64,000 nt of DNA from Planctomycetota bacterium. GTDB lineage: Bacteria > Planctomycetota > Phycisphaerae > Sedimentisphaerales > CAYZTY01. The position numbers were made by a program, and so were the translations under genes. Position 1 is the first letter of the stretch, and each line of letters begins with the position of its first letter. Location of the stretch: positions 3,603 through 67,602 of the forward strand of contig JBDRHL010000144.1 in the NCBI GenBank assembly GCA_043816955.1, in the 5' to 3' direction. Positions 3,082 through 64,000 of this stretch are shown one piece after another. Below the pieces are notes generated by a model. It did no database searches. It had not been told where the DNA came from and worked only from the letters and a program-made list of their open reading frames with translations.

Positions 3082-3551
3082 AAGGGACTACTGAAAAACC
3101 AAGAAATCGTATAAAGAGCATTGCAGGGGGGTGTTTTTTACCGGACGTTTGGGGGTAAGCTGTCCAGTCAGAGGGTAATTAAGCAAGAGCTTTTTCCCTG
3201 TGGCTGTGGGTTTTTGCAATTTTAAATCAATCTGTTTTTCATGTTATCAGCGGTTTTTTATATGTCGATATTGTAAGCAGCAGCGTGTTTTAGCAATATG
3301 GATAAAGGGGCGGATCAATGAGAAAGACGGGGCAATGTGAGCACTTTGTACGAAAGATCGCCGGAGAGGCCGGGGACATACAGAACGAACATTTTTTGAA
3401 TCGTAAAGTATTGAACGGGGTTGTATCGAGTAAAAACTGTGATGTCAGGCGGAGGCTGCCGGTATATCAGATAGTTTTTCTTTTTCTGCTGGTTTTTGCG
3501 AAGGCAATGAAATCGTTGCATGATTAGGTGTCAAAAAAAGAAAGGGAAGAA

Positions 3552-48799: not shown

Positions 48800-50122
48800 A
48801 TGATAGGTTGTCATCTGGGGCGTTTTTTTCAGGTTACCGTCGCAGGCGGTTCATATCAGGACGGGTTATCCGCTATTATCCAGGGCCATCCGCCGGGAAT
48901 GCTGATAACCGAGCAGGAGATATATGGTGATCTGCTTCTGCGGAAGCCCGGTGCAGATGAACTCAGTTCGCCGCGAAAGGAGCCTGACCTGCCGATAATT
49001 TACAGCGGAATAAACTCCGCGGATACGATCGAAGGCGCGGGCAACAAAGACCACACCAACGGAACGCCGCTTACGATTCTGATACCCAACCTCGACAGGC
49101 ATTTCATTCACATCAAGCAGTACCAGGATACGAACCGTACGCCCCGGCCGGGGCACGCATCATATGCATCGTTTATTAAATACGGCCCGGATGATGATGC
49201 TATCGGTGCAGGTATATTCAGCGGCAGGTACACTTCCACAATCGTCGCAGCGGGATATGTAGCCAAGCGGGTTCTCAAGGCAGCGGGAATCGAGGTTTTC
49301 TCGTATGTAAAGGAACTAGCAGGGGTCAGTTGTCCTGCGGTTGAATCCGGAACAGCTTTTAGATACACTGAAAATTACAAGAAGATGCGCCGGGACTTAG
49401 ATCCATTTTATCAGCAGATTTATGTAAGCGGACGGATCAACCGGGACATGCGTTTTCTTGAAAAGATGAAGGTCTTTGCCCAGATCGAGGGTGAAATTGA
49501 TGCCATCCGCGGTCGTGCAGTGACGACAACTTCACAGCAGATACGCGAAAAGTACGGCGTTCATCCCATGCTGAACTGCCCTGATATAGCTGCTGCTGAG
49601 GCGATGGTCGATGCGTGTAAAAAAATCAGTTCAACGGGCGATTCGGCAGGCGGGCTGGTAGAGGTTGTAGTGATGGGTGTGCCGGTTGGACTGGGTGAGC
49701 CGGTTTTCCACAAGCTCGATGCCCAGCTTGGCATGATGCTCGGTATCGGAGCGGTAAAAGGAGTGGAAATCGGAGCGGGTTTTGCAGTAAAGAACATGAC
49801 AGGGTATCAATGCAACGACCAGTTGCGCTGCAAGGCGGGTGAAGTTGTGTTCGAGTCAAACAACGCAGGAGGCATCACGGGGGGCTTGAGCAGCGGGCAG
49901 GATATTATCATCAGACTTGCCATCAAGCCAACCCCGACGATTGACAAACCACAGAAGACGATCGATAAATACACTCTGGAGAACAAACAACTTGCGGCAA
50001 TCACGCGGCGGGACCCTACAGTCGCGGCAAGGGTCTGGCCGGTCGCGGAAAATTTCACCGCTATGATCATACTGGACAATCTTATCGCCCACTACGGCTA
50101 CCAGAGACTCAGGAATGCATAG
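48800..50122 (+). CDS. aroC: Chorismate synthase (divergent, with insertions)
   Basis: RPGHAS..KYG, GDSAGG..EVVV.GVP.GLGEPVF.KLDA, KGVEIG.GF, NNAGGITGG.S.G..I....A.KPT.TI and RRDPTV motifs. Adjacent to aroA. Confidence 0.85.
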   Translation: MIGCHLGRFFQVTVAGGSYQDGLSAIIQGHPPGMLITEQEIYGDLLLRKPGADELSSPRKEPDLPIIYSGINSADTIEGAGNKDHTNGTPLTILIPNLDRHFIHIKQYQDTNRTPRPGHASYASFIKYGPDDDAIGAGIFSGRYTSTIVAAGYVAKRVLKAAGIEVFSYVKELAGVSCPAVESGTAFRYTENYKKMRRDLDPFYQQIYVSGRINRDMRFLEKMKVFAQIEGEIDAIRGRAVTTTSQQIREKYGVHPMLNCPDIAAAEAMVDACKKISSTGDSAGGLVEVVVMGVPVGLGEPVFHKLDAQLGMMLGIGAVKGVEIGAGFAVKNMTGYQCNDQLRCKAGEVVFESNNAGGITGGLSSGQDIIIRLAIKPTPTIDKPQKTIDKYTLENKQLAAITRRDPTVAARVWPVAENFTAMIILDNLIAHYGYQRLRNA

Positions 50123-50125
50123 AAG

Positions 50126-50159
50126 AAAAACCCCGCAGACAGGGAATGCGGGGTTTTTT
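50126..50159. terminator. Bidirectional intrinsic terminator between convergent aroC and the giant gene
   Basis: AAAAA, then CCCCGCA (50131-50137), a 9-nt loop, TGCGGGG (50147-50153) and TTTTTT (50154-50159). Confidence 0.8.
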
Positions 50160-50184
50160 ATTTCACTTCATTTTTGTCGGCCTG

Positions 50185-53100
50185 TTACGGCACATCACTT
50201 TGTACCGGATACCAGCTCGAGGGGGCTGTTATATTGTGATTCGGGGAGGTGTCGCGTACCCAGACTCTGAAGCGGGCGTCGACATAGGGCCCTCCGATCA
50301 TAACAATATAGTAATTATCGGTCTGCCAGCCGCTGCTCAATCCGCCTATATTACACTCGAAACGGTATTCAACATCATACCTGTCGTCAACAGCAGCTTC
50401 GGCAGTCATTTCCGCGCTCCAATCGAACGAACCTGAACCTGGAACCAACCTTAGCTGAATAAGCCGGCTGGGATTCGGCGTCGGGGGTATCAGGTCAGGT
50501 TCTTCCCAGGTCGCAGCAGCACCTATTGGTGACCAGGCTGTTTCGTTGCGGTTGGTCGACAGATCACGAGCCATGACGCGATAAGTGTATGTTGTGCAGG
50601 GATCAAGGCCTATATCCGTATATGCAGCGTTGCTGCTCACCCAGTTATAGTCAACAACCCAGGTGCTTACATTGCAGTCACCAAGGCATCGTTCGAAGAG
50701 ATACTCGACAGGGCTGATGTCATTGGCTTCTGTAGCCTCCATAGTAATCGCTTCATGCGAGATTGCTCCGGGCCAGATCGCCCAGGTCATAGGATCGGGA
50801 GTCGGCGGGTCGTTGTCTGTTGGAACGGGCGCGTTCATGTCACCTGCAATAACATAGCCGACGAAGGACCACCTGGTTTCGGCGCACCTGGCAGGGTCGA
50901 TGACGCCATAGGCATCGGTTTTTACGTCGCGAGCTTTAACCCTGTAGCCATACTCCAGGTCTTTAGTGAGTCCGGTATCTATATAATCCGGGCGATACTG
51001 CCAATCGCTATCGTGGCAGTTGCCGTAGAAGCAATCGAAGTAGTACTGCACGGGATAGCCGCTGTTATCAACGGCTGTGGCTGCAAGCATACCTATCCTG
51101 GTATCATCCAAAGCCCTTGGTGGAACGTTCCACATCATCGGATCGGGCGTCGGAGGCGTCGATTCGACCTCGCCGTAGTTTATCGCAAACATCGCGTAGT
51201 CAATATTGTCAACCTCGCCATCCCGGTTCATGTCGGTACCGTGGCACCAGTCGGGAGTGGCGCAATCCTGCTCAAGCCAGTGGGTGTTGAATATGACCCA
51301 GTCAAGGAAGTCAACTCTTCCGTCAAAGTTGAAATCGCCGACAATATCTGCGCGGCGGACATAATGATAACCAATATCCAGCCTGCCTTTGTCAACCCTC
51401 AGATCGGTCCGGGTTGTGTGTTTGTACATGTCAAGATAGTTGGCATCGCCACTACCCTTATCAATGCAGGGACTGAAGACAGTCTGGTTCGGATCGCCGG
51501 TGTTCGGGTCGCTGAGGAAGTAATCACCCAAAGCATTGCTGACGAATCGCGGATTCCACAAAGATGTACCATGCAGATTGGTAATTTCGTCCCATATCAG
51601 GGTGCAGCCGGTAATCGGATCAATTCCATAAACCGCAACTGCGCCACCCTGAACGTCACTGTATGAAACACTGACCTCAGACGGCAGATGGATAGGTCCA
51701 AAGCCCGTACCCATAGCAATCTGAGCTCCCAGGCCAGCTGAATTGCTCCAGATAATGCTGTCCAGGACAGATGTGTAGGCAGCATAGGAGCAGAACAAGC
51801 CGCCGCCGTAGCCATTGACAAATCCCTCGCTGGTTACGATGTTATCAGCGATTGTACAACTGGATATAGCAGTTTCGCTGTACTGGTTCACCGAGATGCC
51901 GCCGCCGTCGCGGCCTGCTGTGTTATTCGCTATCAGGCAGTTATGCAGCATCACGTCGTTACCGTCATAGATGCACACGCCGCCGCCGGAAGCAAACGCC
52001 ATGTTGTCTGTGATCTCGCAGTCGGCAACACGGGTATCAGTGTTAAACAGATAAAGCGCGCCACCCGATCCCGCATATGCAGGACCGTTGACTTCACCGG
52101 GGCCGTTGGCCTCGTTGTCGATAAAGCTGCTCATACCTATACGAGTCAGAGCTTCTGAGAGATATATTGCACCGCCGCGATAGGCAAAGTTGTCGATGAA
52201 TTCACTGTCGTCGGCATAAAGCTCTGCCTGTTCGGCATATATCGCGCCGCCGATTGTGGCCTGGTTATCGCTGAATACACAGTTTATAAACCTTGGCGAG
52301 GCGCCAGCATCAAAGGCGACAGCTCCGCCGTAGCTTAAATATGGATCATCACTCAGAGCAACAGCAGCACCTTCGTGGTGGGTTGCGGGGCCGTTAATAT
52401 CAGCGGTATTGTCGATAAAGTTGCAATCCGTGAACCTCGGGGAGCTTTGGGCTGCGCAGAATACCGCTCCTCCGAAACGATCTATTCTGTAGTAATTGTC
52501 AACCCAGTTGATCAGCATTGGTTCGCCGGTTTTTCCGCAGACTCCGCCATAGGCGATGTTACCCTGGAAGGTACAATCGATGAAGTTGGGTTCGCTGGCC
52601 CGATCGCAGTACACTCCGCCACCAAGGCCGCTGTACTTCCAGTACTCTTCGAACGGGCCGTAATCCCACCATGAGCCGTTCGGATCGCCCCATGCGCCGC
52701 CATGGCCTCCGTAAGGTCCTCCACCGGCATCGCCCCCCTTGCCGCCATCTGCGCCTTCTGCCCGGCAGTCTATTATCTTGCAGTTGATAAATGCTGGTTT
52801 ACTGTTCGGACTTATATATACAGCACCGCCGTATGCCCTTCCTGGCCAGCCGCCGTCGCCACCGGGTTTTCCCGGACAACCTGCAGCCCCATTGGCGCCG
52901 TTACCCGGATTGACGCCAGTATTTCTGATGACACAGTTTCTTATCGTCGGAGATGCCGGCTGAGCCCACTCCCAGGAGGCAAGCAACCCTGCGTACCATG
53001 ACCAGCCCCACGGCGAGCCGATCTGAAGAGCACCGCCGTATACCGATCCGGCATTATATCCATCAACACCACAGCCTGACGCATCAAGAGGATCAGGGGT

Positions 53101-56100
53101 AAAGTAAGAGAAATCTCTGAGTGTGAAACCATTTATAATCGTATCAGGCCCAACATTAGTAAACTCGATCCGTTCGCGAAGAATGGTTGAAGCAACAACA
53201 CACGGGTCATCAGGATTTGTGCTGGTCAGGGTTATAGCCTTGCCGTCAATCTCGAATTGCAGGTCGCCTGAGGTATACTCACCCGGTGCAACTATAATCG
53301 TATCGCCGTCCATCGCCTCATCAATCGCGCGTTCGATGGAGGTGTAATCACCCGGAACATCGATATCACGCGGCTGACGATACTCAACGGTAACTATCCT
53401 GTCGGTGTGCATGATGAGCCTGTTGGTAAGCTTCGTGGAGCTATCGTCATCGGTGCCGGTCCATCGTTTTACAAGCCAGCCTGCATAGGGCTGCGCTCTG
53501 ACTGTGACAACCGTACCTTTGAAATACTGATCGGGCCAGATCACAGGAGCTGGATCGAATGTTATCGTTCCATGCCCGCCAATTACATATGCGTTAAGCG
53601 AGACAAGCTCAACCTCATCGGTGTCATAATAGTGATAGCCCATATCGACCAAGCCAATGTCGCCGGTGCTGTAGCCAGGGTCGCCGTAGACCAGGCCGTC
53701 CCAGTTGCCTGTGCGCGTGGTGAACCTCTGCAGGGAGACACTACCTGCTGTAACGCTTCCGTTGTCCACCGCCTCGGACTGATTGATCTGGTCGGGCGGC
53801 TGGCTGAGGTAGTAGCTTCCCAGAGGCCCTGATGCAAAGAGCGGATCACTTGCCTTATGGCCGCCGATGGTGGCAGCATTGAGGGCAGCAAGTTCAGCGA
53901 GATTTGGCGAAGTCGGGTTGTTCGCATCATATGTCCGGAAATTTCTGGCCAGAGAAGCCTTGTAGAAATCACCATGATAATTCTGATAAAACAGCGAATG
54001 TCCCAGCGTTATCCTACCCGGAGTGCTTTCATAGACCGCGATTCTGTTGGACTGGTGGAAAATACAATCGGTGATTTGAGCAGAGGATGTCCAGTCGGTG
54101 AATATGGCGCCGCCGGTGCCGGTGATCTGTTCTATGCTGCTGTCGCTGAAAGTACAGTTACTTATTTTCGGATTCGAGGCAACATACGCGGCGATGGCAC
54201 CACCGTTCTGAGTGGCGTAATTACCTGTAAACAAGCAGTTTTTAATTACCGGTGCTCCGTCACAATTGGTGAGGTAAATCGCACCGCCAACAGCCTGCAG
54301 GCCGGATGCCTCGTTGTTGTTTATGCTGCAATGCTGTATTGTGAGGGACGTATCGACGCAGGTCATTGCGCCGCCGTGACTATTATCACCGGTTGACTTA
54401 TTGCCGCTGATATCACCGGTATCAAACATGACTGTGCTGTCTATAAAGTGCAAGGCCCCGGTCAGTTCAGCATGATTATTCATTACATAGCAGTCGTTAA
54501 ATCCGACTGAGACATTTTTGAAATATACCGCTCCGCCGCGGGTCGCGTTGTTGTCGGCGATAGCGCAACTGTCGAGATTCAGTTCGAGTAAAGTCAGATT
54601 GGCATCGGCATGGACAGCTCCACCATAGCCGGCGGCTGCGTTACCATAGAAAGCGCATTCAACAAGCTCAACATCGCTGTCGGTATCCAAACCGCCGCCG
54701 TCAAGATCAGTTGAGTTTCTAGTGAAAACACAATTATTCAGAACAGCATTGGAATCAGGACCAATATAGACACCTCCACCCTCGTATGCAGCGCTGTTGC
54801 CAATAAAGCCGCAGTTTTCGAATACAGCATTAGTATCACCGGCACAGTATACGCCGCCGCCGAGGTTTTCAACAAAATTGCAATCGGTAATCGTAAGTGC
54901 CATGCTATTAACGTCACTGTAAATACCACCACCCTGATGGTAATACTCCGGATAAATCGGATACCCGCCCCATGCGAATGATTTGGGCGTTATGTGTCCA
55001 TAGTATTGATCATATGCGCCATTACCGACAAACGTAGTGCCTGTGATATTGACAGTACAAATCCCGCTGTGCCAAATTCCACCGCCGAAGCCTGAGCCGA
55101 AGCTGAAACCATTCGGTGCATAGTTACCGAAAATGGGAGGGGTTATGGCAGGGCCCAATCCCCGGCGCCCACCGATGCCGGCAAGGCCGCCTGTCGCCTT
55201 GTTTTCGTTAAAGATGCAGTTGGTGATCCTTGGGCAGGCCTTTGGCGCATAATAAACAGCACCGCCATAGCCATAGCCGAGACCGTCACCACCATTGCCG
55301 CCGCGGCCTTCAGTACCGGTAAGACCCAGTTCCAGCGGGCTTCCGCCCCATCCGCCATTACCGCCTGCGCCACCGCTGGCGCGGTTCTCGATGAAGGTGC
55401 ATTCGCTGATAACCGGGCTGCAGTTAACATCGCAGAAGATTCCACCGCCGAAGCCATCGCCGAGTCCGTCGCCGCCGCGTCCGCCTGGGAGTCCGTTGTT
55501 ACTGGCGTCAATCCAAGTGATACCGCCGCCGCCATGGCCACCCTGAGCGCCGGTAACGACGCAATTCTTGATTACGCACTTGATAATCGAGGGACTGCTG
55601 TTGTTTGTGATGTATATACCGCCGCCATAGGCGTCACCAACCACCTCGACACCGTTCATATCGTTGACATCGATGTTTCCATTGGGATCAATATTTTCAT
55701 CGCCGCCGTACTCACCGCAGACATAGCCGTTCATTATAGTAAGGCCGAGCAGGACGGTATTGGCGTCTTCGCCGCTTTGGAAGATAAACGCGCGGTGGTT
55801 GTCAATCTCGGTGCCGGCGCAGTCGATTACCGTCGAGGCTACGATGTTCGGCTCGTTGGGGTTCATGCCTGTTATTGTGATCGACTTACCTTCCAGGTCG
55901 ATATCCACATTATCCTGGCCGGTGTAAACACCGGGCATGATCCAAACGGTATCTCCGAAGCTGGCTGCATTGACGCCTTCGCCAATGGTCTCATATTCCT
56001 GGCCCGGTCCAACGGTAATAGGACCTGCCACATAGAACTCAACGCGGACGGTCTTGTCGGTATCCATTGTCACTTCGTTTGTAACAGCGCCCCAGGCAGG

Positions 56101-59100
56101 CTGCCTGTCCGTGCCGTACCATCTCTTGAGCCTATAACCCGGCGCGGCGGTTGCGGAAAGCTTAACCACCATGTCCTGCAGAAATACCCCGTTGTGATCA
56201 TCGGGCGGATCGGTTGTGACGGTTCCCTGCCCGATGATTTCAATCGTCAGCCTGCGTGAAACCTTGACAAAGTCAATCGTGACGGTCTTATCCATGTCCA
56301 TAAGCGCAACGTTGGTGCTGTTGACATTGTTAGGCTCAGGCAGACGGTCCCTGATTGTGCCGGCCCAGCGGGTCTGGAAACCGTACGGCGGAGGAGGAAT
56401 AACGCTTATCGGCACCATCGTGTATATGTTGTACAAGCCGTCGTTGGGGTCAAAAGGATCAATATCCGGAATAACGTTCGGCTCATAGTTCGGCAGAATA
56501 TTTGCATCCACATGAAGCTCGATCGTCAGCCTGTATTTCGGCAGGTCGAACAGCGGCTGATGATGATAACCAAGGTCCACATAATTTACGTCAAGCTGGC
56601 CATCGGTTCGGGTCGTATACGTTGCCAGGTTGATGTCCACAGCAAGGTCGCGTCCCATATCGATGCAGTTGCTGTCATACAACTGGCCTGCATCTATATG
56701 ACTGAGGTAATAAGGCCCGACAAAACAGGGGTCGTCATCGATAATATGACTGCCCGGAGCCCAGCCGGTGTTCGGGTCCCAGTTGATGACACAGTTCGGC
56801 TCAACATGAATCGGCTCAGAAGTCTTGAGCAGGGTGATTGCTGCGCCGAGATTCACACGGGGCTTTGTTATATCAACCTTGGTATCCGTTACCGGATCGC
56901 CTGTCAGAATGAGGAGGTTTCTGGCCGCATCAGGTGAAAGATATACACCCATCTCCTGGTAAGCAGCAGACTGAAGGTCAAGAACAGCGCCTGCCGCAAA
57001 GGGACATGCCGAGGATGTTCCATTGAAATTAGGCCAGTAATCGCCGGAGGCATAGCCGGCGGGTCCTGCAATATCCAGGGTATACATAGGATCAGCGGGC
57101 GCAAGAATATCGAGAATGTCGGCTGTATTCGAATAGTCTGTAACCATGTCGGTGGTATCATAAACAGCGCCAACTGATATGATATTGGACATTGCCGCGG
57201 GCCAACTTATGCCATCACCGGCAAAGCCGTCATTGCCTGAAGCAGCCAGGACAGCAATTCCTGCGTCAACAAGTTTTTGAACAGTCACGGCAGCAGCGGG
57301 AAATACCGCGTCGGCAAAAGCCGGATCATCGAAAGGAAAATAAGGTATCCCCCAACTGTTGCTGACCACCTTGAGCGGATAAGCGGCGTTATCATTACGA
57401 TGTTTCAGGCACCAGTCCCAGGCGGCTATACCTGCATCGGTGTACATATCGCCATTTACATCGGAAATCCTCAATGCGTATATCCCGGCGTTATATGCCA
57501 CGCCGCCGATGTAATCCTGGAATTTATACAGTTGACCCGCCGCGATACCGGCACAGGCGGTGCCATGAGCTTCATACGGCGGGTAAGGTTCACCCGGCAT
57601 CGGGTCGTTATCGTCATTGCCGAAGTCGTAGCCCCCGATAACCTTATTATTGGGGAAGCCGCCGCCGCCCAGCCGGGGGTGAGTATAATCAACACCTGTA
57701 TCAACTATTGCGATTGCCAGCCCCTGGCCGTTATATGTAGTGCGGGCAATAAGCGCATTGGCGAGTGGAATCGCCTGAGCTAACATCGGATGAACCTCTC
57801 TAACAGGTTCCACATACGCCACAGCGGGATTTGCCAGGAGCGAGGCCAGGCCGGCCTGAGTGACCTCACCGGAAAATACCGCGGAATTTTCCAACTGATG
57901 CCGCACGGTAAATTGTGCCGGACTGAGGGTTGAAAGCACTGAAGCCTGCAGGTCCGCCACATCCTGTCGCATAACACTGACAGAGGATGCCGAAGCCCAG
58001 TTGACCATCGTCGAACTATACGGCTGAACAAGTGTTGCAATAACCTTGACCCATTGTGCGCCCGCGTTGAACTGATCGTATATCGTATCGCCGTCAATCA
58101 GAACGGCGGTGCCTGTGGGGCGGGGAAGAGTACTACCGATGCCCGGCAGGAGGGAGTTAAAGTCCAGTCCCTTCTGCATATCCACATCACTGTGAGTAAT
58201 ACTGAGTTTGGAAGGTATCGAGAAATACTCATTACCGTTATCAAGCGCAATCTGCGAACCGTAGATACCGTTGTTGCCCCAGATAATTGAATTGATGATT
58301 TCGTTATCACTGCCGTATGCGGCGAAAAAGCCGCCGCCGTAGGAATCAAGGCCATATACCCTGTTGTCAGCAATTGTGCAGTTCTCAATATTCGGTTTGG
58401 CGTACCAGTTGGAGGAAATTCCGCCGCCGTCAACGTGGGCAGTGTTTTTGGTGACGAGACAATTTTTCAGGGTAATTGCGCCATCGAGCGGTGTAAGCGC
58501 ATCACCGCTGAGATAGATGCCGCCGCCGGAGCCGATACTGCGGTTGCCTGTTACGGTGCAGTCGGAAATCACCGCATCGGATGAGGCGCTGTAAAGGCCG
58601 CCGCCAAAACCATAAATTCTGTTAGGCTCGTTGAAGTTAGAGTCTGCAATGTTGTCGCTGAAGATACAGCCTGTGATTTTGATAGTGCTGCGGACAGAAT
58701 ACATACCGCCGCCGAGAAAGGCACTATTTTCACCGAAGTTGCTATCAACAATGTTTATATCACTGACCGATATTGCCCTGACTCCACCACCTACAGGAGC
58801 AAAGTTGCCGATGAAATTGCAGTCATTGACCTCGACAAATGTTGTTGCCGGCGGGAGATTCCTGCCGTCAAAGCACATACCGCCGCCATAGCCTGTATAC
58901 TCATCGCCTGTAAACAACTCGTTCGGATCGTGGGTAGTCTGGTTATTCATTGTTCTGCAGCGTATAAAACGCCCGGTTGAAGCGGGGCCTGTATAGATAC
59001 CTCCTCCGGCACTGGGAATTCTATAGTTCTTTCGAGGCGGCGCCTGGCGACCGAAAGCGGGCCAGCCGCCCTGGCCGCTGATGCTGCCCTGAACATGGCT

Positions 59101-61869
59101 GTCTGTGATATTGCAATCGGTAAATATTGCCGCTGAGCCCCAGGTGCAGGCGAGACTTCCTCCGTGTGCGGTGAAATTATCCGGATGGAGCTGATTCTGG
59201 GGGCTTCCCACATAGCTATCGGTAACTTCAACGAGTCCGCCCACCCCGCCGCGGAAATTCGTGTTGTTTATCCCTGCAACGCCGTTGCCGCCGTCTCCTC
59301 CTCTACCAGCGGTGCAGCGATTATTAATAAAGCTGCAGCTTGTGAAATTTACGCTGGAGAAGAAATCACAGTATACAGCGCCTCCTTCACTGGGGCCCGG
59401 CACGCCGGCATCGCCACCTCTGCCGTCGCCGCCAAATGCAGGATCGGCGCCGGCGCCTCCGTTTGCTCCGTTACCACCATCACCGCTTATCGTATTACAA
59501 TCCCGGAAAACACAATTTATGAATGTCGGGTTTGTCACTATATCGCAGAAGACCGCACCTCCCTGGGCGCTACCCGCTGAGCCGCCATCGCCGCCGCGTC
59601 CGCCTGCTGTGTTGGGATCGTTCGGATCAATGGGGCTGCTTGCGGTGAGGCCAAGTCCGCCATCAGCCGCATCGCCAGAAATGGCATAACAGCCGTCAAA
59701 AACGCAGTTGCGGATGACGGGACTTCCCCAGTTTATATACATGCCTCCTCCGCCGACATTACCGGAATTGCCGCCTTTGCCTCCCGAGGACTTGGAAGGC
59801 ACGTTACACGGATCGGTGCTGAGAGCGCCGGGATTACCTGCGGAAGGAAGGCCTGATTCGACACCACAATTGCGTATTATACAATTTGTAATTAGATGAT
59901 TGCCGTTGACCCCGATGCCCGCACCGAACATCGCGCTGGAATTTAGACCGTCTGAGCCGGGGTTGATAGGCGCCAGACGATTTATCGATCTGCGAAAGGC
60001 GTTGGCAATGGTAAGGTTATTTAATGTTACCTGGCCGGAGCCGCCTGCACCATTCAAAACAAATCCAAACTCCTGCTGCCCGCTGGGATCGATAACCACC
60101 TGGTTCGGATTGCCAACACCGCTGATAGTAATATTCTGATTTACAAAAAATCCTGTGCCGGTGTAATAGCCGGGACTTATAAGAATTGTATCCCCATTGA
60201 CCGCAAGATTCAGAGCGTCCTGAATACTCAGGTAATCATGCTCGCCTGGCACATGATATGTGATGTTGAGGTCAGGCTCAAACAACACTGTAACAATTAC
60301 GTTGGCTGTTACGGTAACTGTGTTGACGTTCATGTTCCAGCCGGGCACATCATCGGTGTTGGTCCATGAAGCCACACGATAGCCCGGAGCAGGATAAGCA
60401 GTTATCGTTACAACCGTGCCGTCAAAAACTGTAATCCTTCGAATACTGACATTTCCGTTTGCGCCGGGTGTAACTGTCAGGGTGTACCTTGGAATCTGTT
60501 CAAACTCAACGGTAACGCTGCGGTTCATGTTCATCATGGCGCGGTATGTATTCGGATCATTCGGATCCAGGTACGGCGCAGCGTTGCTGTCGACCCATTC
60601 TTTTACCCTTATATTCGGATCAGCCGGATAGGCTGTAAGCTCAACCACTCTGTAATGCGGATACGGCTGAGGCGTTGGATGATTGGGATCAATATCACCT
60701 GCTGCGCCAGCAGCTACCACCGCTGTGGTCAGATCGTAATTGGGTACATTAGCATCTATTGCGACCTTATGGTGATAGCCGATATCGACCCGTCCCGCGT
60801 CCGGTGCATAATTCGAATCTGTAACCGCCTTATAATTGGGATCTCCCGTATCCAGAGTGGACAGGGGATCACCGGCGTCGATACAATCACTATAGATAAG
60901 CTGCTGGGAGATATTGCTCAGGAAATAAGGCCCTACCGACAACAACGGATCGATAACAAGATTGGGCTCTGTAAAAATGTTTCCCTGGCCGATATCGCCG
61001 TCCTGAATACACGAATACCTGGCCATACCATCGCAGTTAAAAAGCTCATCACCGTTATTCCAGAGAATTGAATTGACAATCACGGCGGTGCTGTTGTCGT
61101 CGCTTCTGTAAATACCGCCGAAGTTGTTCAGGCCGATATTATCAATTATCGTACAATTTCGAATTTCAGGATTTGCATTGAACAGATAAATCGAACCAAC
61201 ATCGGCGGTTGTGTTTTTGGCGATGGCACAACTTTTCAGAATAGCCGATGAGTCGAAGCAGCATACGGCACCACCGCCTTGAGAGGAAGTATTCTCCGCG
61301 ATTACACTGAAACTAATGGCTGCAGTATCAACTTCGCAATTAACTCCCCCGCCGTAACTGGCAAGATTATGAGTGATGCGACAGTCCGTTACGACAGCCG
61401 ATGAGAAAAACAGATCAATACCGCCGCCGTAGAAGCTTGCCGTATTGCCTGCGCCAGGTAGACCTATGGTACAATTTAAAATGGTCGGTGAAGAATTATC
61501 ACATTCAATACCGCCGCCGAAGTCAGCAAGACCATTGATGATGGTAAAACCGTCAACAACTGAGCTATGTCCTTCACCGCTGTGAAAATAGAATCCCCTT
61601 CCCTGCCCGTTGCAATCGATTATACAATTCTCCGGCCCGTTCTGACTACGAACCACAACAGCTTTACCCTGAAAATCAAGATCAAAGTTACCGGTTCCGC
61701 TGTAATTACCATCCGCAACCAGAACCATATCACCGTTGCCTGCACGGTCAATGCCATCCTGAATTGTCAGGATAGGAGGCACCTCACCAAGGTCCGGCAC
61801 ATGATATGTCAGTCCTGCTGTAAAACCTGTAGACGATAAAAATATCAGAGCGAAAATAATCCGCTTCAT
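50185..61869 (-). CDS. Giant (3,894-aa) secreted modular protein. It has four Pmp-like right-handed beta-helix modules, an embedded I9-propeptide/S8 subtilase, Ig-like spacers, a dockerin-like module and three Fn3-like modules.
   Basis: Uninterrupted ORF. GGAGG lies 6 nt before ATG 61869. Signal peptide MKRIIFALIFLSSTGFTAG. The GG(A/G)(I/V)(Y/F) and FxxC/N rung motifs recur throughout. S8 triad motifs are IAIVDTG, HGTACAG and GTSSACP. Confidence 0.9.
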   Translation of the reverse strand: MKRIIFALIFLSSTGFTAGLTYHVPDLGEVPPILTIQDGIDRAGNGDMVLVADGNYSGTGNFDLDFQGKAVVVRSQNGPENCIIDCNGQGRGFYFHSGEGHSSVVDGFTIINGLADFGGGIECDNSSPTILNCTIGLPGAGNTASFYGGGIDLFFSSAVVTDCRITHNLASYGGGVNCEVDTAAISFSVIAENTSSQGGGAVCCFDSSAILKSCAIAKNTTADVGSIYLFNANPEIRNCTIIDNIGLNNFGGIYRSDDNSTAVIVNSILWNNGDELFNCDGMARYSCIQDGDIGQGNIFTEPNLVIDPLLSVGPYFLSNISQQLIYSDCIDAGDPLSTLDTGDPNYKAVTDSNYAPDAGRVDIGYHHKVAIDANVPNYDLTTAVVAAGAAGDIDPNHPTPQPYPHYRVVELTAYPADPNIRVKEWVDSNAAPYLDPNDPNTYRAMMNMNRSVTVEFEQIPRYTLTVTPGANGNVSIRRITVFDGTVVTITAYPAPGYRVASWTNTDDVPGWNMNVNTVTVTANVIVTVLFEPDLNITYHVPGEHDYLSIQDALNLAVNGDTILISPGYYTGTGFFVNQNITISGVGNPNQVVIDPSGQQEFGFVLNGAGGSGQVTLNNLTIANAFRRSINRLAPINPGSDGLNSSAMFGAGIGVNGNHLITNCIIRNCGVESGLPSAGNPGALSTDPCNVPSKSSGGKGGNSGNVGGGGMYINWGSPVIRNCVFDGCYAISGDAADGGLGLTASSPIDPNDPNTAGGRGGDGGSAGSAQGGAVFCDIVTNPTFINCVFRDCNTISGDGGNGANGGAGADPAFGGDGRGGDAGVPGPSEGGAVYCDFFSSVNFTSCSFINNRCTAGRGGDGGNGVAGINNTNFRGGVGGLVEVTDSYVGSPQNQLHPDNFTAHGGSLACTWGSAAIFTDCNITDSHVQGSISGQGGWPAFGRQAPPRKNYRIPSAGGGIYTGPASTGRFIRCRTMNNQTTHDPNELFTGDEYTGYGGGMCFDGRNLPPATTFVEVNDCNFIGNFAPVGGGVRAISVSDINIVDSNFGENSAFLGGGMYSVRSTIKITGCIFSDNIADSNFNEPNRIYGFGGGLYSASSDAVISDCTVTGNRSIGSGGGIYLSGDALTPLDGAITLKNCLVTKNTAHVDGGGISSNWYAKPNIENCTIADNRVYGLDSYGGGFFAAYGSDNEIINSIIWGNNGIYGSQIALDNGNEYFSIPSKLSITHSDVDMQKGLDFNSLLPGIGSTLPRPTGTAVLIDGDTIYDQFNAGAQWVKVIATLVQPYSSTMVNWASASSVSVMRQDVADLQASVLSTLSPAQFTVRHQLENSAVFSGEVTQAGLASLLANPAVAYVEPVREVHPMLAQAIPLANALIARTTYNGQGLAIAIVDTGVDYTHPRLGGGGFPNNKVIGGYDFGNDDNDPMPGEPYPPYEAHGTACAGIAAGQLYKFQDYIGGVAYNAGIYALRISDVNGDMYTDAGIAAWDWCLKHRNDNAAYPLKVVSNSWGIPYFPFDDPAFADAVFPAAAVTVQKLVDAGIAVLAASGNDGFAGDGISWPAAMSNIISVGAVYDTTDMVTDYSNTADILDILAPADPMYTLDIAGPAGYASGDYWPNFNGTSSACPFAAGAVLDLQSAAYQEMGVYLSPDAARNLLILTGDPVTDTKVDITKPRVNLGAAITLLKTSEPIHVEPNCVINWDPNTGWAPGSHIIDDDPCFVGPYYLSHIDAGQLYDSNCIDMGRDLAVDINLATYTTRTDGQLDVNYVDLGYHHQPLFDLPKYRLTIELHVDANILPNYEPNVIPDIDPFDPNDGLYNIYTMVPISVIPPPPYGFQTRWAGTIRDRLPEPNNVNSTNVALMDMDKTVTIDFVKVSRRLTIEIIGQGTVTTDPPDDHNGVFLQDMVVKLSATAAPGYRLKRWYGTDRQPAWGAVTNEVTMDTDKTVRVEFYVAGPITVGPGQEYETIGEGVNAASFGDTVWIMPGVYTGQDNVDIDLEGKSITITGMNPNEPNIVASTVIDCAGTEIDNHRAFIFQSGEDANTVLLGLTIMNGYVCGEYGGDENIDPNGNIDVNDMNGVEVVGDAYGGGIYITNNSSPSIIKCVIKNCVVTGAQGGHGGGGITWIDASNNGLPGGRGGDGLGDGFGGGIFCDVNCSPVISECTFIENRASGGAGGNGGWGGSPLELGLTGTEGRGGNGGDGLGYGYGGAVYYAPKACPRITNCIFNENKATGGLAGIGGRRGLGPAITPPIFGNYAPNGFSFGSGFGGGIWHSGICTVNITGTTFVGNGAYDQYYGHITPKSFAWGGYPIYPEYYHQGGGIYSDVNSMALTITDCNFVENLGGGVYCAGDTNAVFENCGFIGNSAAYEGGGVYIGPDSNAVLNNCVFTRNSTDLDGGGLDTDSDVELVECAFYGNAAAGYGGAVHADANLTLLELNLDSCAIADNNATRGGAVYFKNVSVGFNDCYVMNNHAELTGALHFIDSTVMFDTGDISGNKSTGDNSHGGAMTCVDTSLTIQHCSINNNEASGLQAVGGAIYLTNCDGAPVIKNCLFTGNYATQNGGAIAAYVASNPKISNCTFSDSSIEQITGTGGAIFTDWTSSAQITDCIFHQSNRIAVYESTPGRITLGHSLFYQNYHGDFYKASLARNFRTYDANNPTSPNLAELAALNAATIGGHKASDPLFASGPLGSYYLSQPPDQINQSEAVDNGSVTAGSVSLQRFTTRTGNWDGLVYGDPGYSTGDIGLVDMGYHYYDTDEVELVSLNAYVIGGHGTITFDPAPVIWPDQYFKGTVVTVRAQPYAGWLVKRWTGTDDDSSTKLTNRLIMHTDRIVTVEYRQPRDIDVPGDYTSIERAIDEAMDGDTIIVAPGEYTSGDLQFEIDGKAITLTSTNPDDPCVVASTILRERIEFTNVGPDTIINGFTLRDFSYFTPDPLDASGCGVDGYNAGSVYGGALQIGSPWGWSWYAGLLASWEWAQPASPTIRNCVIRNTGVNPGNGANGAAGCPGKPGGDGGWPGRAYGGAVYISPNSKPAFINCKIIDCRAEGADGGKGGDAGGGPYGGHGGAWGDPNGSWWDYGPFEEYWKYSGLGGGVYCDRASEPNFIDCTFQGNIAYGGVCGKTGEPMLINWVDNYYRIDRFGGAVFCAAQSSPRFTDCNFIDNTADINGPATHHEGAAVALSDDPYLSYGGAVAFDAGASPRFINCVFSDNQATIGGAIYAEQAELYADDSEFIDNFAYRGGAIYLSEALTRIGMSSFIDNEANGPGEVNGPAYAGSGGALYLFNTDTRVADCEITDNMAFASGGGVCIYDGNDVMLHNCLIANNTAGRDGGGISVNQYSETAISSCTIADNIVTSEGFVNGYGGGLFCSYAAYTSVLDSIIWSNSAGLGAQIAMGTGFGPIHLPSEVSVSYSDVQGGAVAVYGIDPITGCTLIWDEITNLHGTSLWNPRFVSNALGDYFLSDPNTGDPNQTVFSPCIDKGSGDANYLDMYKHTTRTDLRVDKGRLDIGYHYVRRADIVGDFNFDGRVDFLDWVIFNTHWLEQDCATPDWCHGTDMNRDGEVDNIDYAMFAINYGEVESTPPTPDPMMWNVPPRALDDTRIGMLAATAVDNSGYPVQYYFDCFYGNCHDSDWQYRPDYIDTGLTKDLEYGYRVKARDVKTDAYGVIDPARCAETRWSFVGYVIAGDMNAPVPTDNDPPTPDPMTWAIWPGAISHEAITMEATEANDISPVEYLFERCLGDCNVSTWVVDYNWVSSNAAYTDIGLDPCTTYTYRVMARDLSTNRNETAWSPIGAAATWEEPDLIPPTPNPSRLIQLRLVPGSGSFDWSAEMTAEAAVDDRYDVEYRFECNIGGLSSGWQTDNYYIVMIGGPYVDARFRVWVRDTSPNHNITAPSSWYPVQSDVP

Positions 61870-62064
61870 CCTAAGCCTCCAAATGTTATCGAAGTGTCCG
61901 AATTCCGAAGCGTTTCTAATCATAACATATCCTGAAGAAATCATAGCACAAAATCAAAACGTTTATAATGCTATTTCAAAAACTCAAATGCCTTTTGGAT
62001 TATCCGGCGTTTTTTCCCTGAAAACTTTTGATAAATTCACTCCGGATAAGTAAGTCCGCCGGCA

Positions 62065-64000
62065 TTACTGCCTGAGCATCGGGAAAGCCTCGCGCTCTTT
62101 TTCTTCCTTCAATATGATGGTGGGTTTAACCAGAATAAGAAGAATGGCGCTGTCCTTCGACTTGGCTCGGTTCTGGAACAATCTTCCGAACAGCGGCAGC
62201 TTGGAGAAGCCGGGGACACCTTCTTCCGTCTCCGTCTCGCCGGTCAGCTTCTGGCCGCCGATGAGCAGCGTGCCTCCATCCGGAACATTCACGCGCGTGC
62301 TTACATCAGCAGTTTGCATGAGAGGGAGCTGAAGTTTGAACTCCCTCAGGTCTGCTCCGGTGCCGGTTGAGCCTACGTACCGTTCATCGATGCCAAGCAC
62401 GCGGTTAAAAGATGTTGTTATAAGCAGAAGAACATACTTCTTGTCGGCGCTGATGGTGGGGTTGACCGTCAGCACGACCCCGTCGAAAATGGTATCGACC
62501 GTCGGGTCTGCGGTGGTAACAACATTTGCACTTTCGGTACTTATAGTCTGGGTAAGGTCCCAGTCGGAAACATATGCTATCTCATTTTGAATCGTAATCG
62601 TGGCAACTTCGCCGCTGAGGACGGTTACTTTCGGCGCCGTAAGCGTCCTGGCACTGGCATTTGCCTGTGTTGCCTTGACAAGGAAACTGACCTGCAGATC
62701 GTCAAGAATACTGCCATATCCCCCGGTTAGCGTAGCAGCATCAGTGACAAGATCCGACAGACTGCCTGATACACCCGTGTCTGTGGCAGTAGCGAAGGAC
62801 ATGGAATCCTGTTCAACATCAATAATGCCCCACTTGCCGCCCAGGTTACGGAGCCTGAAATCAAGATCGACGCCAATCTGCTCCAGGAAGTTTTCCGTCA
62901 CCGTCAAAAAACGTGCCTCGATGGCAACTTCCTGGCCCACGGATTTGCGCATTTCGTTGAGAAGCTGTCTTATCTGCTCATGTACCTCAGGAGTCTGGGT
63001 GATAATAAGCTGAGTGCCAAAAACCTTGATAGTACCTTCGCCGCCGGTTGAATACCAGGTGTTACGGGCTATTGATTCCTCAATGAGTTCGATGATATCT
63101 GTGGCCCTTTCTTCCACTTGCGCAATGTCAAAAGCTTCAGTAGCACCAGTGCGGCCGCCGGTACGACCAGCACCACCTCCGCGGGTACCGCCTCCTCCTC
63201 TGCCTCCTCCTCCTCCTCCTGTTGTTGCCAAATCTCCGCCTTCGGAGAAGTTCGCAGGTGCGCCAAGAAGCTCGGTTACAGGATAAACGCGCGTAACCAT
63301 ATTGCTCGGAATAGCTTCCCTGGTTGCAATAGTAATGATGCCGTCTTTGACAGTATAACCGATATCAGCAAGGCCGCCCGAGACCGCATCAAGCAGAAGC
63401 TCAAGGCCCTTGCCAAGAGTGACCTGCGCGATACCTTCGAAATTGATCTGTGTGGTTTGCTCGACGTACGCATTTTCGCTGAGGTCTCGCCACCTGACAA
63501 AAATCGTAAGGGGGGGAGAAACAGCATTTCTGATAGTCTCGATTGCCTGAGCGAATTCCGTGTCCAGCCTCAGTGCCGACAGATCAACCACTTCTGCAAG
63601 CTGTTTGTAGATGGCGGCATCACGAGGGTCTGCCCCTGCGAGTTCTTCTGGTGCTCGTTTTTCGACAATCTGGGGCCAATCTCGCGGGAATGTAATCTCG
63701 TTGGCATGAGGTATTGAGGATCGCTGCGCTTCGACCAGAAGGTCAAGCTCCTGTTTTTCCGTGTCTCTGATTACCTCAATCTGGCGCTGGTAGTTAAGCG
63801 TATCTTCAACCATTTGCTTCAGGCTCAATGCATGGCTGTGGTGTTCATCAAGATTCAGAAGCATCTCCAGCGATCCAAGCGCATCCCTGTAACGCCGCTG
63901 CTCCACAAAAGCAAGCGAGCTATTCATGTATTCTTCGATTTGTTTTCTACGATCCTCTTCCTGCTGAGCACGGTGCCTGGTCTGAAGCGCTGCGGCTTCC
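62065..64000 (-). CDS. Secretin (GspD/PilQ superfamily), 5' end beyond the window edge
   Basis: C-terminal secretin signature ...VPGFSKLPLFGRLFQNRAKSKDSAILLILVKPTII. The frame stays open upstream of the track's ATG 63927 to nt 63999. The N-terminal part is helical and TPR-like. Confidence 0.85.
   Translation of the reverse strand, partial: EAAALQTRHRAQQEEDRRKQIEEYMNSSLAFVEQRRYRDALGSLEMLLNLDEHHSHALSLKQMVEDTLNYQRQIEVIRDTEKQELDLLVEAQRSSIPHANEITFPRDWPQIVEKRAPEELAGADPRDAAIYKQLAEVVDLSALRLDTEFAQAIETIRNAVSPPLTIFVRWRDLSENAYVEQTTQINFEGIAQVTLGKGLELLLDAVSGGLADIGYTVKDGIITIATREAIPSNMVTRVYPVTELLGAPANFSEGGDLATTGGGGGGRGGGGTRGGGAGRTGGRTGATEAFDIAQVEERATDIIELIEESIARNTWYSTGGEGTIKVFGTQLIITQTPEVHEQIRQLLNEMRKSVGQEVAIEARFLTVTENFLEQIGVDLDFRLRNLGGKWGIIDVEQDSMSFATATDTGVSGSLSDLVTDAATLTGGYGSILDDLQVSFLVKATQANASARTLTAPKVTVLSGEVATITIQNEIAYVSDWDLTQTISTESANVVTTADPTVDTIFDGVVLTVNPTISADKKYVLLLITTSFNRVLGIDERYVGSTGTGADLREFKLQLPLMQTADVSTRVNVPDGGTLLIGGQKLTGETETEEGVPGFSKLPLFGRLFQNRAKSKDSAILLILVKPTIILKEEKEREAFPMLRQ

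What the first reader, a model, noticed from the sequence alone, without database searches (positions are those of the whole stretch)
56796..58165. I9-propeptide plus S8 subtilase cassette inserted into a loop of the module-2 cap
The ends of modules 2 and 4 align. Module 4 reads ...LDSIIWSNSAGLGAQIAM....PSEVSVSYSDVQGG-(about 16 aa)-CTLIWDE...NPRFVS..GDYFLS. Module 2 reads ...INSIIWGNNGIYGSQIAL....PSKLSITHSDVDMQKG-(about 455 aa)-CVINWDP...DPCFVGPYYLS. The extra 455 aa contain two parts.
- An inhibitor-I9-like propeptide (VKVIATLVQP...FTVRHQLENSAVFSGEVTQAGLASLLANPAVAYVEPVREV, about 58080-57790).
- A complete subtilase with an intact triad: Asp in IAIVDTGVD (codon 57700-57702), His in HGTACAG (57565-57567) and Ser in GTSSACP (57013-57015).

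A protease with its own intramolecular chaperone nested inside a beta-helix adhesin-like scaffold implies self-processing. It may cleave the giant precursor into fragments, or the scaffold may display an active protease on a long stalk. I am not aware of this nested arrangement being described.
Basis: partly seen in the sequence, partly recalled or inferred. Interest (0 to 1): 0.75.

Follow-up and report, generated by a model that had tools for sequence, protein, structure and literature searches.

The report
Pro-subtilase grafted into a beta-helix cap
A complete subtilisin-type protease precursor sits inside a surface loop at the end of a beta-helix module of a 3,919-residue secreted protein, an apparently undescribed layout found in about 58 related genomes, so activating the protease should cut the giant chain's backbone.

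Summary
In the 3,919-aa ORF (window 50185-61944, minus strand), residues 1260-1717 are an extra segment in the C-terminal cap of beta-helix module 2. With the segment removed, module 2 aligns end to end with module 4 (40% identity).

The segment is a whole secreted subtilase precursor without its signal peptide:
- a flexible Gly/Ser/Pro linker;
- an I9-type propeptide;
- an S8 catalytic domain with Asp1415, His1460, Asn1571 and Ser1644.

Its predicted fold best matches unprocessed pro-subtilisins. The same nested layout occurs in giant ORFs (1,000 to more than 6,800 aa) of about 58 species-level Planctomycetota genomes, mostly Sedimentisphaerales-type Phycisphaerae. The catalytic residues and the pro/mature junction are conserved throughout.

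In related giant proteins the same loop carries VWA or NIDO domains instead. The loop is therefore a general grafting site, not a dedicated cleavage device.

Most likely this is a displayed extracellular protease. Its normal zymogen autoprocessing (predicted ...HPML|AQAIPL...) would nick the giant chain. Cleavage, activity and whether the two chains stay together are inferred, not shown. No paper describing the arrangement was found. I rate it a new variant of known kinds, of moderate interest.

The parts
50185..61944 (-). Giant ORF of 3,919 aa. It has four beta-helix modules separated by InlB-B-repeat-like domains, then a dockerin and three C-terminal repeats.
   Evidence: Pfam finds Beta_helix x10, Flg_new_2 x3, Peptidase_S8 and Dockerin_1.
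61813..61869 (-). Probable true start and signal peptide (aa 26-44, MKRIIFALIFLSSTGFTAG).
   Evidence: Read directly from the translation. Inference; no signal-peptide predictor was run.
58168..60258 (-). Module-2 beta-helix up to the first half of its C-terminal cap (about aa 563-1259). It ends ...INSIIWGNNGIYGSQIAL...PSKLSITHSDVDMQKG.
   Evidence: aa 1112-1254 match 3292-3431 (41% identity, E 4e-30); beta-helix with pLDDT about 90..
58102..58167 (-). N-linker (aa 1260-1281), flexible and rich in Gly/Ser/Pro.
   Evidence: pLDDT below 50 at aa 1267-1277; 20-35 aa (median 28) in 56 nested homologues, with conservation 0.33 against 0.6-0.74 for the flanking regions.
57781..58101 (-). I9-type propeptide (aa 1282-1388): an N-terminal helix followed by a beta-alpha-beta-beta-alpha-beta unit.
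   Evidence: secondary structure, pLDDT above 90. (top matches are unprocessed pro-subtilisins, 430-460 aligned columns). (Pfam I9 is the recurrent but mostly sub-threshold hit). (the same pro-region follows the signal peptide in free-standing homologues).
57778..57783 (-). Predicted autoprocessing site Leu1388 | Ala1389 (...EPVREVHPML|AQAIPLANA...).
   Evidence: By analogy with subtilisin BPN' (...HVAHAY|AQSVPYG; established knowledge). P1 is Leu or Met in 53 of 55, with Q1390, L1394, N1396 and A1397 nearly invariant; low pLDDT at aa 1389-1397. Cleavage itself is not shown.
56839..57780 (-). S8 subtilase catalytic domain (aa 1389-1702).
   Evidence: PF00082, E 2e-37; alignment to solved subtilases; pLDDT mostly above 90.
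57700..57702 (-). Catalytic Asp1415 (IAIVDTGVD).
   Evidence: conserved in 55 of 56 nested sequences; the one exception is a gap.
57565..57567 (-). Catalytic His1460 (HGTACAG).
   Evidence: conserved in 55 of 56; the one exception is a masked X.
57232..57234 (-). Oxyanion-hole Asn1571 (AASGNDG).
   Evidence: conserved in 56 of 56.
57013..57015 (-). Catalytic Ser1644 (GTSSACP).
   Evidence: conserved in 56 of 56.
56794..56838 (-). Short C-linker (aa 1703-1717, ...LLKTSEPIHVEPN) that returns the chain to the cap.
   Evidence: 14-21 aa in nested homologues. (alignment A5).
56560..56793 (-). Second half of the module-2 cap (aa 1718-1795: CVINWDP...DPCFVGPYYLS...CIDMG...VDLGYHH).
   Evidence: matches 3405-3528 and 323-397.; the equivalent segment of module 4 is modelled at pLDDT 90-97 within one body of pTM 0.91; this segment was not placed in the module-2 model (pLDDT below 50).
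51361..51759 (-). Uninserted reference cap of module 4 (aa 3396-3528). It has 12 aa where module 2 has 458.

Best explanation
Architecture (shown). An ancestral free-standing secreted pro-subtilase, minus its signal peptide, was grafted into a permissive loop of the C-terminal cap of a beta-helix module. The module belongs to a giant secreted, adhesin-like protein of a Sedimentisphaerales-type planctomycete. In this protein family the loop is a general docking site for guest domains: pro-S8 here, VWA or NIDO elsewhere. The beta-helix modules would then act as rigid spacers that present functional heads. Shown here are the insertion point, the completeness of the pro-enzyme, conservation of the catalytic residues and the junction, and the recurrence across genomes.

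Mechanism (inferred):
1. After export, the I9-type propeptide chaperones folding of the S8 domain.
2. The enzyme cleaves its own pro/mature junction at about Leu1388|Ala1389. Because the cassette is nested, this cut breaks the backbone of the giant protein.
3. The result is an N-chain (modules 1-2 plus linker plus propeptide) and a C-chain (mature protease, second cap half, modules 3-4, dockerin).
4. The two chains are expected to stay together, first through the propeptide-enzyme complex and then through the two interlocking halves of the cap.
5. Once the tethered propeptide is degraded or displaced, the protease is displayed mid-fibre and works on external proteins.
For: - Insertion point and continuity of the cap: 9- or 21-aa spacer in uninserted homologues; pTM 0.91, cap pLDDT 90-97.
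- Complete pro-enzyme: (propeptide topology; best structural matches are unprocessed pro-subtilisins 3afg, 3whi and 2e1p over 430-460 columns).
- Cassette boundaries match the secreted precursor of free-standing paralogues from the same lineage (45-50% identity).
- Purifying selection on every part needed for maturation and catalysis. Asp/His/Asn/Ser are present in 55-56 of 56 nested sequences, and the junction EPVRxxxP[MA][LM]|[AR]Q[AGS][IL]PL[AM]NA is conserved. The propeptide is as conserved as the caps, while the N-linker is not.
- Recurrence in about 58 species-level genomes, always inside giant ORFs. Nested S8s form mainly one clade.
- The same loop carries VWA_4 or NIDO in related giants.
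- Export is plausible: an N-terminal signal-like peptide, a dockerin and a conserved secretin gene directly upstream.
Against: - No experiment shows cleavage, activity or chain association.
- The AlphaFold model of module 2 with the cassette left the post-insert cap unplaced (pLDDT below 50, pTM 0.74). How the protease sits on the helix, and whether the cap halves pack as in module 4, is extrapolated.
- I could not inspect the contacts of the module-4 model. Continuity is inferred from pTM, pLDDT and the short spacer.
- Pfam I9 is below threshold for the window's propeptide.
- A permanently tethered propeptide at high local concentration might keep the enzyme inhibited, as in PCSK9. That would undercut the 'displayed active protease' part.
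Confidence: 0.6

Rival explanations
1. Dedicated self-cleavage device. The main job of the S8 cassette is to act in cis, or on sister molecules, to split the giant precursor into separately acting fragments that dissociate.
For: - Autoprocessing at the junction would necessarily cut the backbone (inference).
- Internal S8 and C39 domains have been proposed to cleave giant Omnitrophota proteins.
- The catalytic residues are fully conserved.
Against: - The same loop holds non-proteolytic guests (VWA, NIDO) in sister proteins. The site is therefore not specialised for cleavage.
- The two cap halves are modelled as one tightly joined body in the uninserted module, which argues against easy dissociation.
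- The closest free-standing relatives are ordinary secreted peptidases with varied binding domains.
Confidence: 0.17
2. Single-turnover or latent module. The protease cleaves only its own junction, or nothing at all. The tethered propeptide then stays bound, so the domain serves as a binding or structural head rather than a working enzyme, as in PCSK9.
For: - The propeptide is covalently tethered by a 20-35-aa linker next to the enzyme.
- The propeptide is as conserved as the scaffold.
- PCSK9 appears among the structural matches.
Against: - The S8 domain is the most conserved region (0.74), with an intact oxyanion Asn and triad in all 56 sequences.
- Free-standing paralogues of 45-50% identity look like ordinary digestive peptidases.
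Confidence: 0.13
3. Not nested, only beads on a string. The segment after the protease (DPxF...YYLS...CID.G...GYHH) is an independent small domain, so the S8 simply lies between two domains.
For: - The AlphaFold model of module 2 did not dock this segment.
- Foldseek and the PDB sequence searches gave no clear solved template for the cap.
Against: - In about 100 uninserted homologues the two halves are joined by 9 aa (WPGEGNIDA) or 21 aa, with no linker-like sequence.
- Module 4 is modelled as one body (pTM 0.91), with the segment at pLDDT 90-97. It is mostly coil and short strands, which is unlikely for a stand-alone domain.
- A weak profile match puts both halves contiguously at the end of a beta-helix domain of a solved PL6 lyase, 7dmk (stretch E 0.017).
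Confidence: 0.08
4. Artefact: an assembly chimera, or two genes fused by a sequencing error.
For: None found.
Against: - The reading frame is uninterrupted.
- Identical junctions on both sides occur in many independent assemblies.
Confidence: 0.01

Closest known systems
Free-standing secreted pro-subtilases of Planctomycetota (S8 with an I9-type propeptide and varied C-terminal binding domains)
   Same: - 45-50% identity over the whole cassette.
- Same pro-region, same LAQ(G/A)IPL junction, same ITKPR(V/I)NLG end.
   Different: - They start with a signal peptide and are followed by dockerin, CARDB, FN3 or PKD domains.
- Here the unit has no signal peptide and is embedded in a loop of another domain.
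- Many free-standing forms carry an extra Cys-rich loop that most nested forms lack.
Bacillus and Thermococcus pro-subtilisins (pro-subtilisin E 3whi, pro-Tk-subtilisin 2e1p, ProN-Tk-SP 3afg)
   Same: They are the best structural matches over propeptide plus catalytic domain. The junction motif is analogous (...AY|AQSVPYG against ...ML|AQAIPLA).
   Different: About 20-23% identity. In them, cleavage frees a propeptide from a small enzyme. Here it would split a 3,919-aa chain.
Subtilase autotransporters (Ssp, SphB1, NalP) and SPATEs
   Same: A serine protease is combined with a right-handed beta-helix stalk. In SPATEs, accessory subdomains protrude from the helix (PMC9977779).
   Different: - In those proteins the protease is N-terminal and caps or flanks the helix, and a C-terminal beta-barrel translocator is present.
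- Here the protease is nested in a C-terminal cap loop of an internal module, and Pfam finds no autotransporter barrel.
Internal autoprocessing protease domains of giant toxins (MARTX and large clostridial toxin cysteine protease domains); S8 and C39 domains proposed for giant Omnitrophota proteins
   Same: The concept is shared: a protease domain inside a giant secreted precursor that can cut the precursor (for Omnitrophota; established knowledge for MARTX).
   Different: Different catalytic class, no inositol-phosphate switch, and not nested in another fold. In Omnitrophota the S8 domains are near the N-terminus.
Autoproteolytic modules whose fragments stay together (SEA and GAIN domains), and PCSK9
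   Same: The predicted outcome is similar: a backbone cut inside a folded unit, with the two chains remaining non-covalently joined. In PCSK9 the prodomain stays bound after cleavage.
   Different: SEA and GAIN cleave by a non-enzymatic cis mechanism. Here a full catalytic protease would make the cut. The analogy is to behaviour only and is untested.
PA-domain insertion in subtilases (pyrolysins, C5a peptidase, plant subtilases)
   Same: A nested-domain architecture involving S8.
   Different: The topology is reversed: there the S8 is the host and PA the guest, whereas here the S8 is the guest.

Membership tests
Peptidase S8 (subtilase), Pfam PF00082 | Profile match above the curated threshold. 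| tested here: met
   129.3 bits against a cut-off of 21.8, aa 1406-1683.
Peptidase S8 (subtilase), Pfam PF00082 | Catalytic triad in the order Asp-His-Ser, plus the oxyanion Asn. | tested here: met
   Asp1415, His1460, Asn1571 and Ser1644 align with the catalytic residues of solved subtilases. They are conserved in 55-56 of 56 nested homologues.
Peptidase S8 (subtilase), Pfam PF00082 | Proteolytic activity. | not testable with these tools
   Needs an enzyme assay.
Inhibitor I9 / subtilisin propeptide, Pfam PF05922 | Profile match above the curated threshold. | tested here: not met
   - Window: 13.8 bits against 21.2, E 0.097.
- Nested homologues: I9 hit in 7 of 10, one above threshold (24.4 bits).
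- Several free-standing relatives carry a precomputed PF05922 hit.
Inhibitor I9 / subtilisin propeptide, Pfam PF05922 | Beta-alpha-beta-beta-alpha-beta fold docked on the catalytic domain, immediately N-terminal to it. | tested here: met
   The AlphaFold model has strands and helices in that order at aa 1299-1380 with pLDDT above 90. The best Foldseek matches are unprocessed pro-subtilisins aligned over both domains.
Inhibitor I9 / subtilisin propeptide, Pfam PF05922 | Autocatalytic removal at the pro/mature junction. | not testable with these tools
   Only the conserved junction motif is seen.
Right-handed parallel beta-helix, Pfam PF13229 (host domain) | Profile match and a three-stranded rung pattern. 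| tested here: met
   144 bits over 10 stretches. Regular three-strand rungs appear in both models.
Nested (domain-in-loop) insertion | The host sequence on both sides of the guest forms one fold. | tested here: inconclusive
   For:
- end-to-end alignment with uninserted modules;
- a 9- or 21-aa spacer in homologues;
- the module-4 model has pTM 0.91.

Against:
- the post-insert half is not placed in the module-2 model;
- model contacts could not be inspected.
Subtilase autotransporters (type Va secretion) | C-terminal beta-barrel translocator and an N-terminal protease. | tested here: not met
   Pfam finds no autotransporter domain. The protease is internal, and the C-terminus is a dockerin plus repeats.
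Mycosin (TIGR03921) | Equivalog score above the cut-off. | tested here: not met
   77.6 bits against 278.75.

The most novel reading that the evidence does not exclude
The nested pro-subtilase acts as a built-in enzymatic nicking hinge. Zymogen activation converts the giant single chain into a two-chain fibre held together only by the split beta-helix cap and/or the tethered propeptide. The fibre could then come apart under force or on propeptide degradation, releasing the N-terminal 1,388 residues. This would be a protease-driven counterpart of SEA/GAIN autoproteolysis. It would sit on a scaffold whose cap loop is a modular socket for interchangeable heads (S8, VWA, NIDO).
Probability: 0.2. 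Interest if true: 0.7.

Novelty: new variant of a known kind. Interest (0 to 1): 0.5.

Why it matters
- It defines a recurrent and apparently undescribed architecture: a full protease zymogen as a guest inside another domain's loop. Normal zymogen maturation must then break the host protein's backbone.
- It gives a concrete, cheap experiment on how giant bacterial surface proteins are processed. That question is open for giant proteins in general.
- It identifies a natural socket in a beta-helix cap that tolerates 250-450-residue guests of three unrelated folds. This is of interest for understanding how these modular giants evolve and for protein engineering.
- Current annotation labels these genes simply as 'S8 family serine peptidase', which hides the architecture.

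Tried and rejected
- Self-BLAST of the whole protein against itself returned only the identity hit. It worked after cutting the protein into masked fragments.
- A MAFFT alignment of the four caps with the insert left in scattered the short sequences across the insert. I redid it with the insert removed.
I scanned ten propeptides instead.
- AlphaFold of module 2 with the cassette did not place the post-insert cap. I used the second and last prediction job on the uninserted module 4.
- Foldseek of the module-4 model against the PDB gave only weak generic beta-helix matches and no template for the cap.
- A four-sequence cap profile found nothing in the PDB. A 101-sequence profile gave a weak match of both cap halves to the PL6 lyase 7dmk, which I treat as a lead only.
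- Three literature searches found no description of an S8 nested in a beta-helix.
- The regex survey of cap spacings misses many caps and produced false long spacings (L048, L056, L009b, L018b, L054). Only the VWA, NIDO and L053 cases were kept.
- Rejected memberships: mycosin, autotransporter and assembly artefact.
Full report
**1. What is in the sequence**

The finding lies in one ORF on the minus strand, window 50185-61944, encoding 3,919 aa. Pfam finds ten right-handed beta-helix stretches, three InlB-B-repeat-like domains (Flg_new_2), one dockerin (aa 3536-3585) and one Peptidase_S8 domain at aa 1406-1683 (E 2e-37).

An internal Met26 is followed by MKRIIFALIFLSSTGFTAG. This looks like the real start with a signal peptide (read; inference).

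These residues, together with the oxyanion Asn1571, align with the catalytic residues of solved subtilases:

| Residue | Window coordinates |
|---|---|
| Asp1415 | 57700-57702 |
| His1460 | 57565-57567 |
| Ser1644 | 57013-57015 |

**2. Is it an insertion?**

Fragment-wise self-comparison shows that aa 1112-1254 match aa 3292-3431 of module 4 (41% identity, E 4e-30). The match resumes at aa 1699-1795 against 3405-3528, and at 1712-1800 against 323-397 of module 1.

With aa 1260-1703 removed, module 2 aligns end to end with module 4 at 40% identity:
- ...LSITHSDVDMQKG | SEPIHVEPNCVINWDP...DPCFVGPYYLS...CIDMG...VDLGYHH
- ...VSVSYSDVQGG-AVAVYGIDPITGCTLIWDE...NPRFVS..GDYFLS...CIDKG...LDIGYHY

Module 2 has 458 residues between MQKG and CVINW, where module 4 has 12.

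**3. What the insert is**

It has four parts.
- **N-linker, aa 1260-1281.** It has low model confidence. In 56 nested homologues it is 20-35 aa long, Gly/Ser/Pro-rich and poorly conserved (0.33).
- **Pro-region, aa 1282-1388.** The AlphaFold model (766 aa, pLDDT 81) gives a short helix followed by beta-alpha-beta-beta-alpha-beta.
- **S8 catalytic domain, aa 1389-1702.**
- **C-linker, aa 1703-1717.**

Foldseek against the PDB ranks unprocessed pro-subtilisins first: ProN-Tk-SP 3afg, pro-subtilisin E 3whi and pro-Tk-subtilisin 2e1p. These align over 430-460 columns, covering propeptide and enzyme together.

Pfam's I9 model is below threshold for the window (13.8 against 21.2 bits). It is nevertheless the recurrent hit on the same region of nested homologues: 7 of 10, with one above threshold. 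It is also precomputed for several free-standing relatives. 'I9-type propeptide' is therefore supported by fold and family context, not by the profile score.

**4. Where the cassette came from**

A search of 5.8 billion proteins returned hundreds of free-standing S8 peptidases, mostly from Planctomycetota (Sedimentisphaerales). They are 45-50% identical over the cassette only.

Their sequences run: signal peptide, then the same pro-region (...KVKVIINL...FENQAGFSGEVT...IEPV...HLAQGIPL...), then S8 ending ...ITKPRINLGNAI, then varied binding domains.

The cassette boundaries therefore coincide with a complete secreted precursor minus its signal peptide.

**5. Recurrence**

The top hits (P0001-P0008 and others) carry the same flanks on both sides at 50-56% identity. 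Nineteen distinct proteins (20 with P0154) have at least one beta-helix cap half next to the cassette.

A scan of one genome per species (GTDB) used the 'S8 end plus second cap half' alignment. It found about 60 full-length matches on about 58 contigs or genomes. All are Planctomycetota, labelled Sedimentisphaerales, Anaerohalosphaeraceae or Phycisphaerae.

The matches lie in ORFs of 1,000 to more than 6,800 aa. The first-cap motif (S-I-I-W-x-N) sits 182-201 residues before the catalytic Asp, and the DPxF and GYH[YH] motifs follow at fixed distances.

In an alignment of 56 nested sequences:
- Asp, His, Asn and Ser are present in 55-56;
- the junction reads EPVRxxxP[MA][LM] | [AR]Q[AGS][IL]PL[AM]NA, with P1 Leu or Met in 53 of 55.

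Regional conservation:

| Region | Conservation |
|---|---|
| First cap half | 0.60 |
| N-linker | 0.33 |
| Propeptide | 0.61 |
| S8 domain | 0.74 |
| Second cap half | 0.61 |

A rough neighbour-joining tree puts most nested S8s in one clade, with a second small group. This suggests one or two ancestral insertions.

**6. Is it truly nested in one fold?**

*Evidence for.*
- In about 100 uninserted homologues of the module-4 end, the spacer between YSDVQGG and DPLFV is almost always 9 aa (WPGEGNIDA) or 21 aa (QSGVWVDxGCTLNWGxGNIDA). There is no linker-like sequence.
- AlphaFold models the module-4 end (386 aa, 101-sequence alignment) with pLDDT 90.9 and pTM 0.91. The segment after the insertion point has pLDDT 90-97 and is mostly coil with a few short strands. 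That is hard to reconcile with a free-standing domain.
- A weak profile match places both halves contiguously at the end of a beta-helix domain of the solved PL6 lyase 7dmk (stretch E 0.017). I treat this as a lead only.

*Evidence against.*
- The model of module 2 itself left aa 1724-1805 unplaced (pLDDT below 50). Only about 14 sequences covered that part of the alignment, which is probably the cause.
- I could not inspect the contacts of either model.

I rate nesting as likely but not proven.

**7. A wider pattern: the loop is a socket**

At exactly the same point (after YSxV..., before ...PPxIYVExGCxLxGW), other related proteins carry other guests.
- **VWA domain of 227-257 aa:** P0131 and P0139 (VWA_4, E 9e-8 and 9e-9), and again in locus L016.
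- **NIDO domain:** loci L009, L016 and L025. Only L009 was scanned (PF06119, E 1.8e-25). L016 and L025 carry a closely similar insert.
- **Unidentified guest of about 300 aa:** L053.

In the window itself, module 3 has a 45-aa expansion at this site.

This weakens the idea that the site exists for self-cleavage. It supports a scaffold that displays interchangeable heads.

**8. How it most likely works**

*Shown:* a catalytically complete pro-S8 sits in a cap loop of a secreted giant protein and is under purifying selection, including its propeptide and junction.

*Inferred from the established maturation pathway of subtilisins (propeptide-assisted folding, autocleavage at the junction, propeptide degradation):*
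- After export the cassette folds and cuts at about Leu1388|Ala1389 (...HPML|AQAIPL...). This is analogous to ...HVAHAY|AQSVPYG in subtilisin BPN'.
- Because the unit is nested, the cut nicks the giant chain. It gives an N-chain (to aa 1388) carrying the tethered propeptide, and a C-chain (from aa 1389) that begins with the mature protease.
- If the cap halves pack as modelled, the chains stay together and the protease is displayed mid-fibre. There it would probably digest external proteins, like its free-standing paralogues.

*Rivals:*
- fragment release as the main purpose;
- a PCSK9-like state in which the tethered propeptide stays bound and the head is latent;
- a simple beads-on-a-string layout;
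- an artefact, which is excluded by the recurrence.

**9. Comparison with what is known**

The parts are ordinary members of S8 and of right-handed beta-helix families. The arrangement is not.

- Subtilase autotransporters such as Ssp have an N-terminal protease capping the helix and a C-terminal barrel (PMC9977779). No barrel is present here.
- SPATEs have side-protruding subdomains, but their protease is not nested.
- PA-in-S8 insertions have the opposite topology.
- Internal protease domains of MARTX and clostridial toxins are the closest functional analogy but belong to a different class.
- A 2023 preprint speculated that S8 and C39 domains cleave giant Omnitrophota proteins. Those S8 domains are N-terminal (10.1101/2023.11.21.568195).
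- Three full-text searches found no description of an S8 precursor nested in a beta-helix cap.
- Database records call these genes 'S8 family serine peptidase'.

**10. Verdict**

This is a new variant of known kinds. It is widespread in one bacterial lineage and carries a clear, testable mechanistic consequence. The mechanism itself is untested. Interest is moderate, at 0.5.

Noticed in passing
window 62065-63927 (-); loci L040, L042, L051, L052, L055, L057, L061, L064: A secretin gene (PF00263, E 4e-26) lies directly upstream of the giant gene on the same strand. Secretin homologues (39-53% identity) occur upstream of the match, on the same strand, in eight related loci. In four where I checked the coordinates (L040, L051, L052, L057) the secretin ends just before the giant ORF begins. 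This suggests a conserved secretin/giant-protein gene pair.
   Followed up: partly
P0131, P0139; L016 ORF aa 6105-6413; L009 aa 778-1094; L016 aa 4076-4391; L025 aa 2988-3302; L053 aa 1788-2149: The same cap loop (between YSDVxGG and DPxFV) carries a VWA_4 domain, a NIDO domain or an unidentified guest of about 300 aa in related giant proteins. The loop is a general domain-insertion hot spot.
   Followed up: partly
window 50188-51185 (-), aa 3587-3919: Three tandem repeats of about 110 aa (PPxPDPMxW...YRV.ARD) follow the dockerin and have no Pfam match. Repeats 1 and 2 are 38% identical. The same repeats end several homologues (P0003, P0004, P0009, P0010, P0022).
   Followed up: no
window 53845-53979 (-), about aa 2656-2700: Module 3 has a roughly 45-aa expansion (NYHGDFYKASLARNFRTYDANNPTSPNLAELAALNAATIGGHKAS) at the same cap site where module 2 holds the protease.
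   Followed up: no
window 61870-61944 (-): The first ATG of the ORF precedes a more plausible start at Met26, which is followed by a signal-peptide-like sequence. The annotated N-terminus is probably 25 residues too long.
   Followed up: no
L002/L046 (contig VRUL01000004.1) and L032/L053 (contig VRUI01000007.1): Two nested S8 cassettes lie 11-15 kb apart on the same contig. Some genomes therefore carry two such modules, either in one giant gene or in neighbouring giant genes.
   Followed up: no
window 45015-47363 (+): A 782-aa FG-GAP/VCBS repeat protein with a weak dockerin-like hit lies nearby. It is separated from the giant gene by the shikimate-pathway genes EPSP synthase (47498-48769) and chorismate synthase (48800-50122).
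   Followed up: no
window 1-48000 against 50000-64000: GC skew is strongly positive (0.1-0.37) over the first 48 kb, where the long ORFs are mostly on the plus strand. It falls to about zero over the giant minus-strand gene.
   Followed up: no
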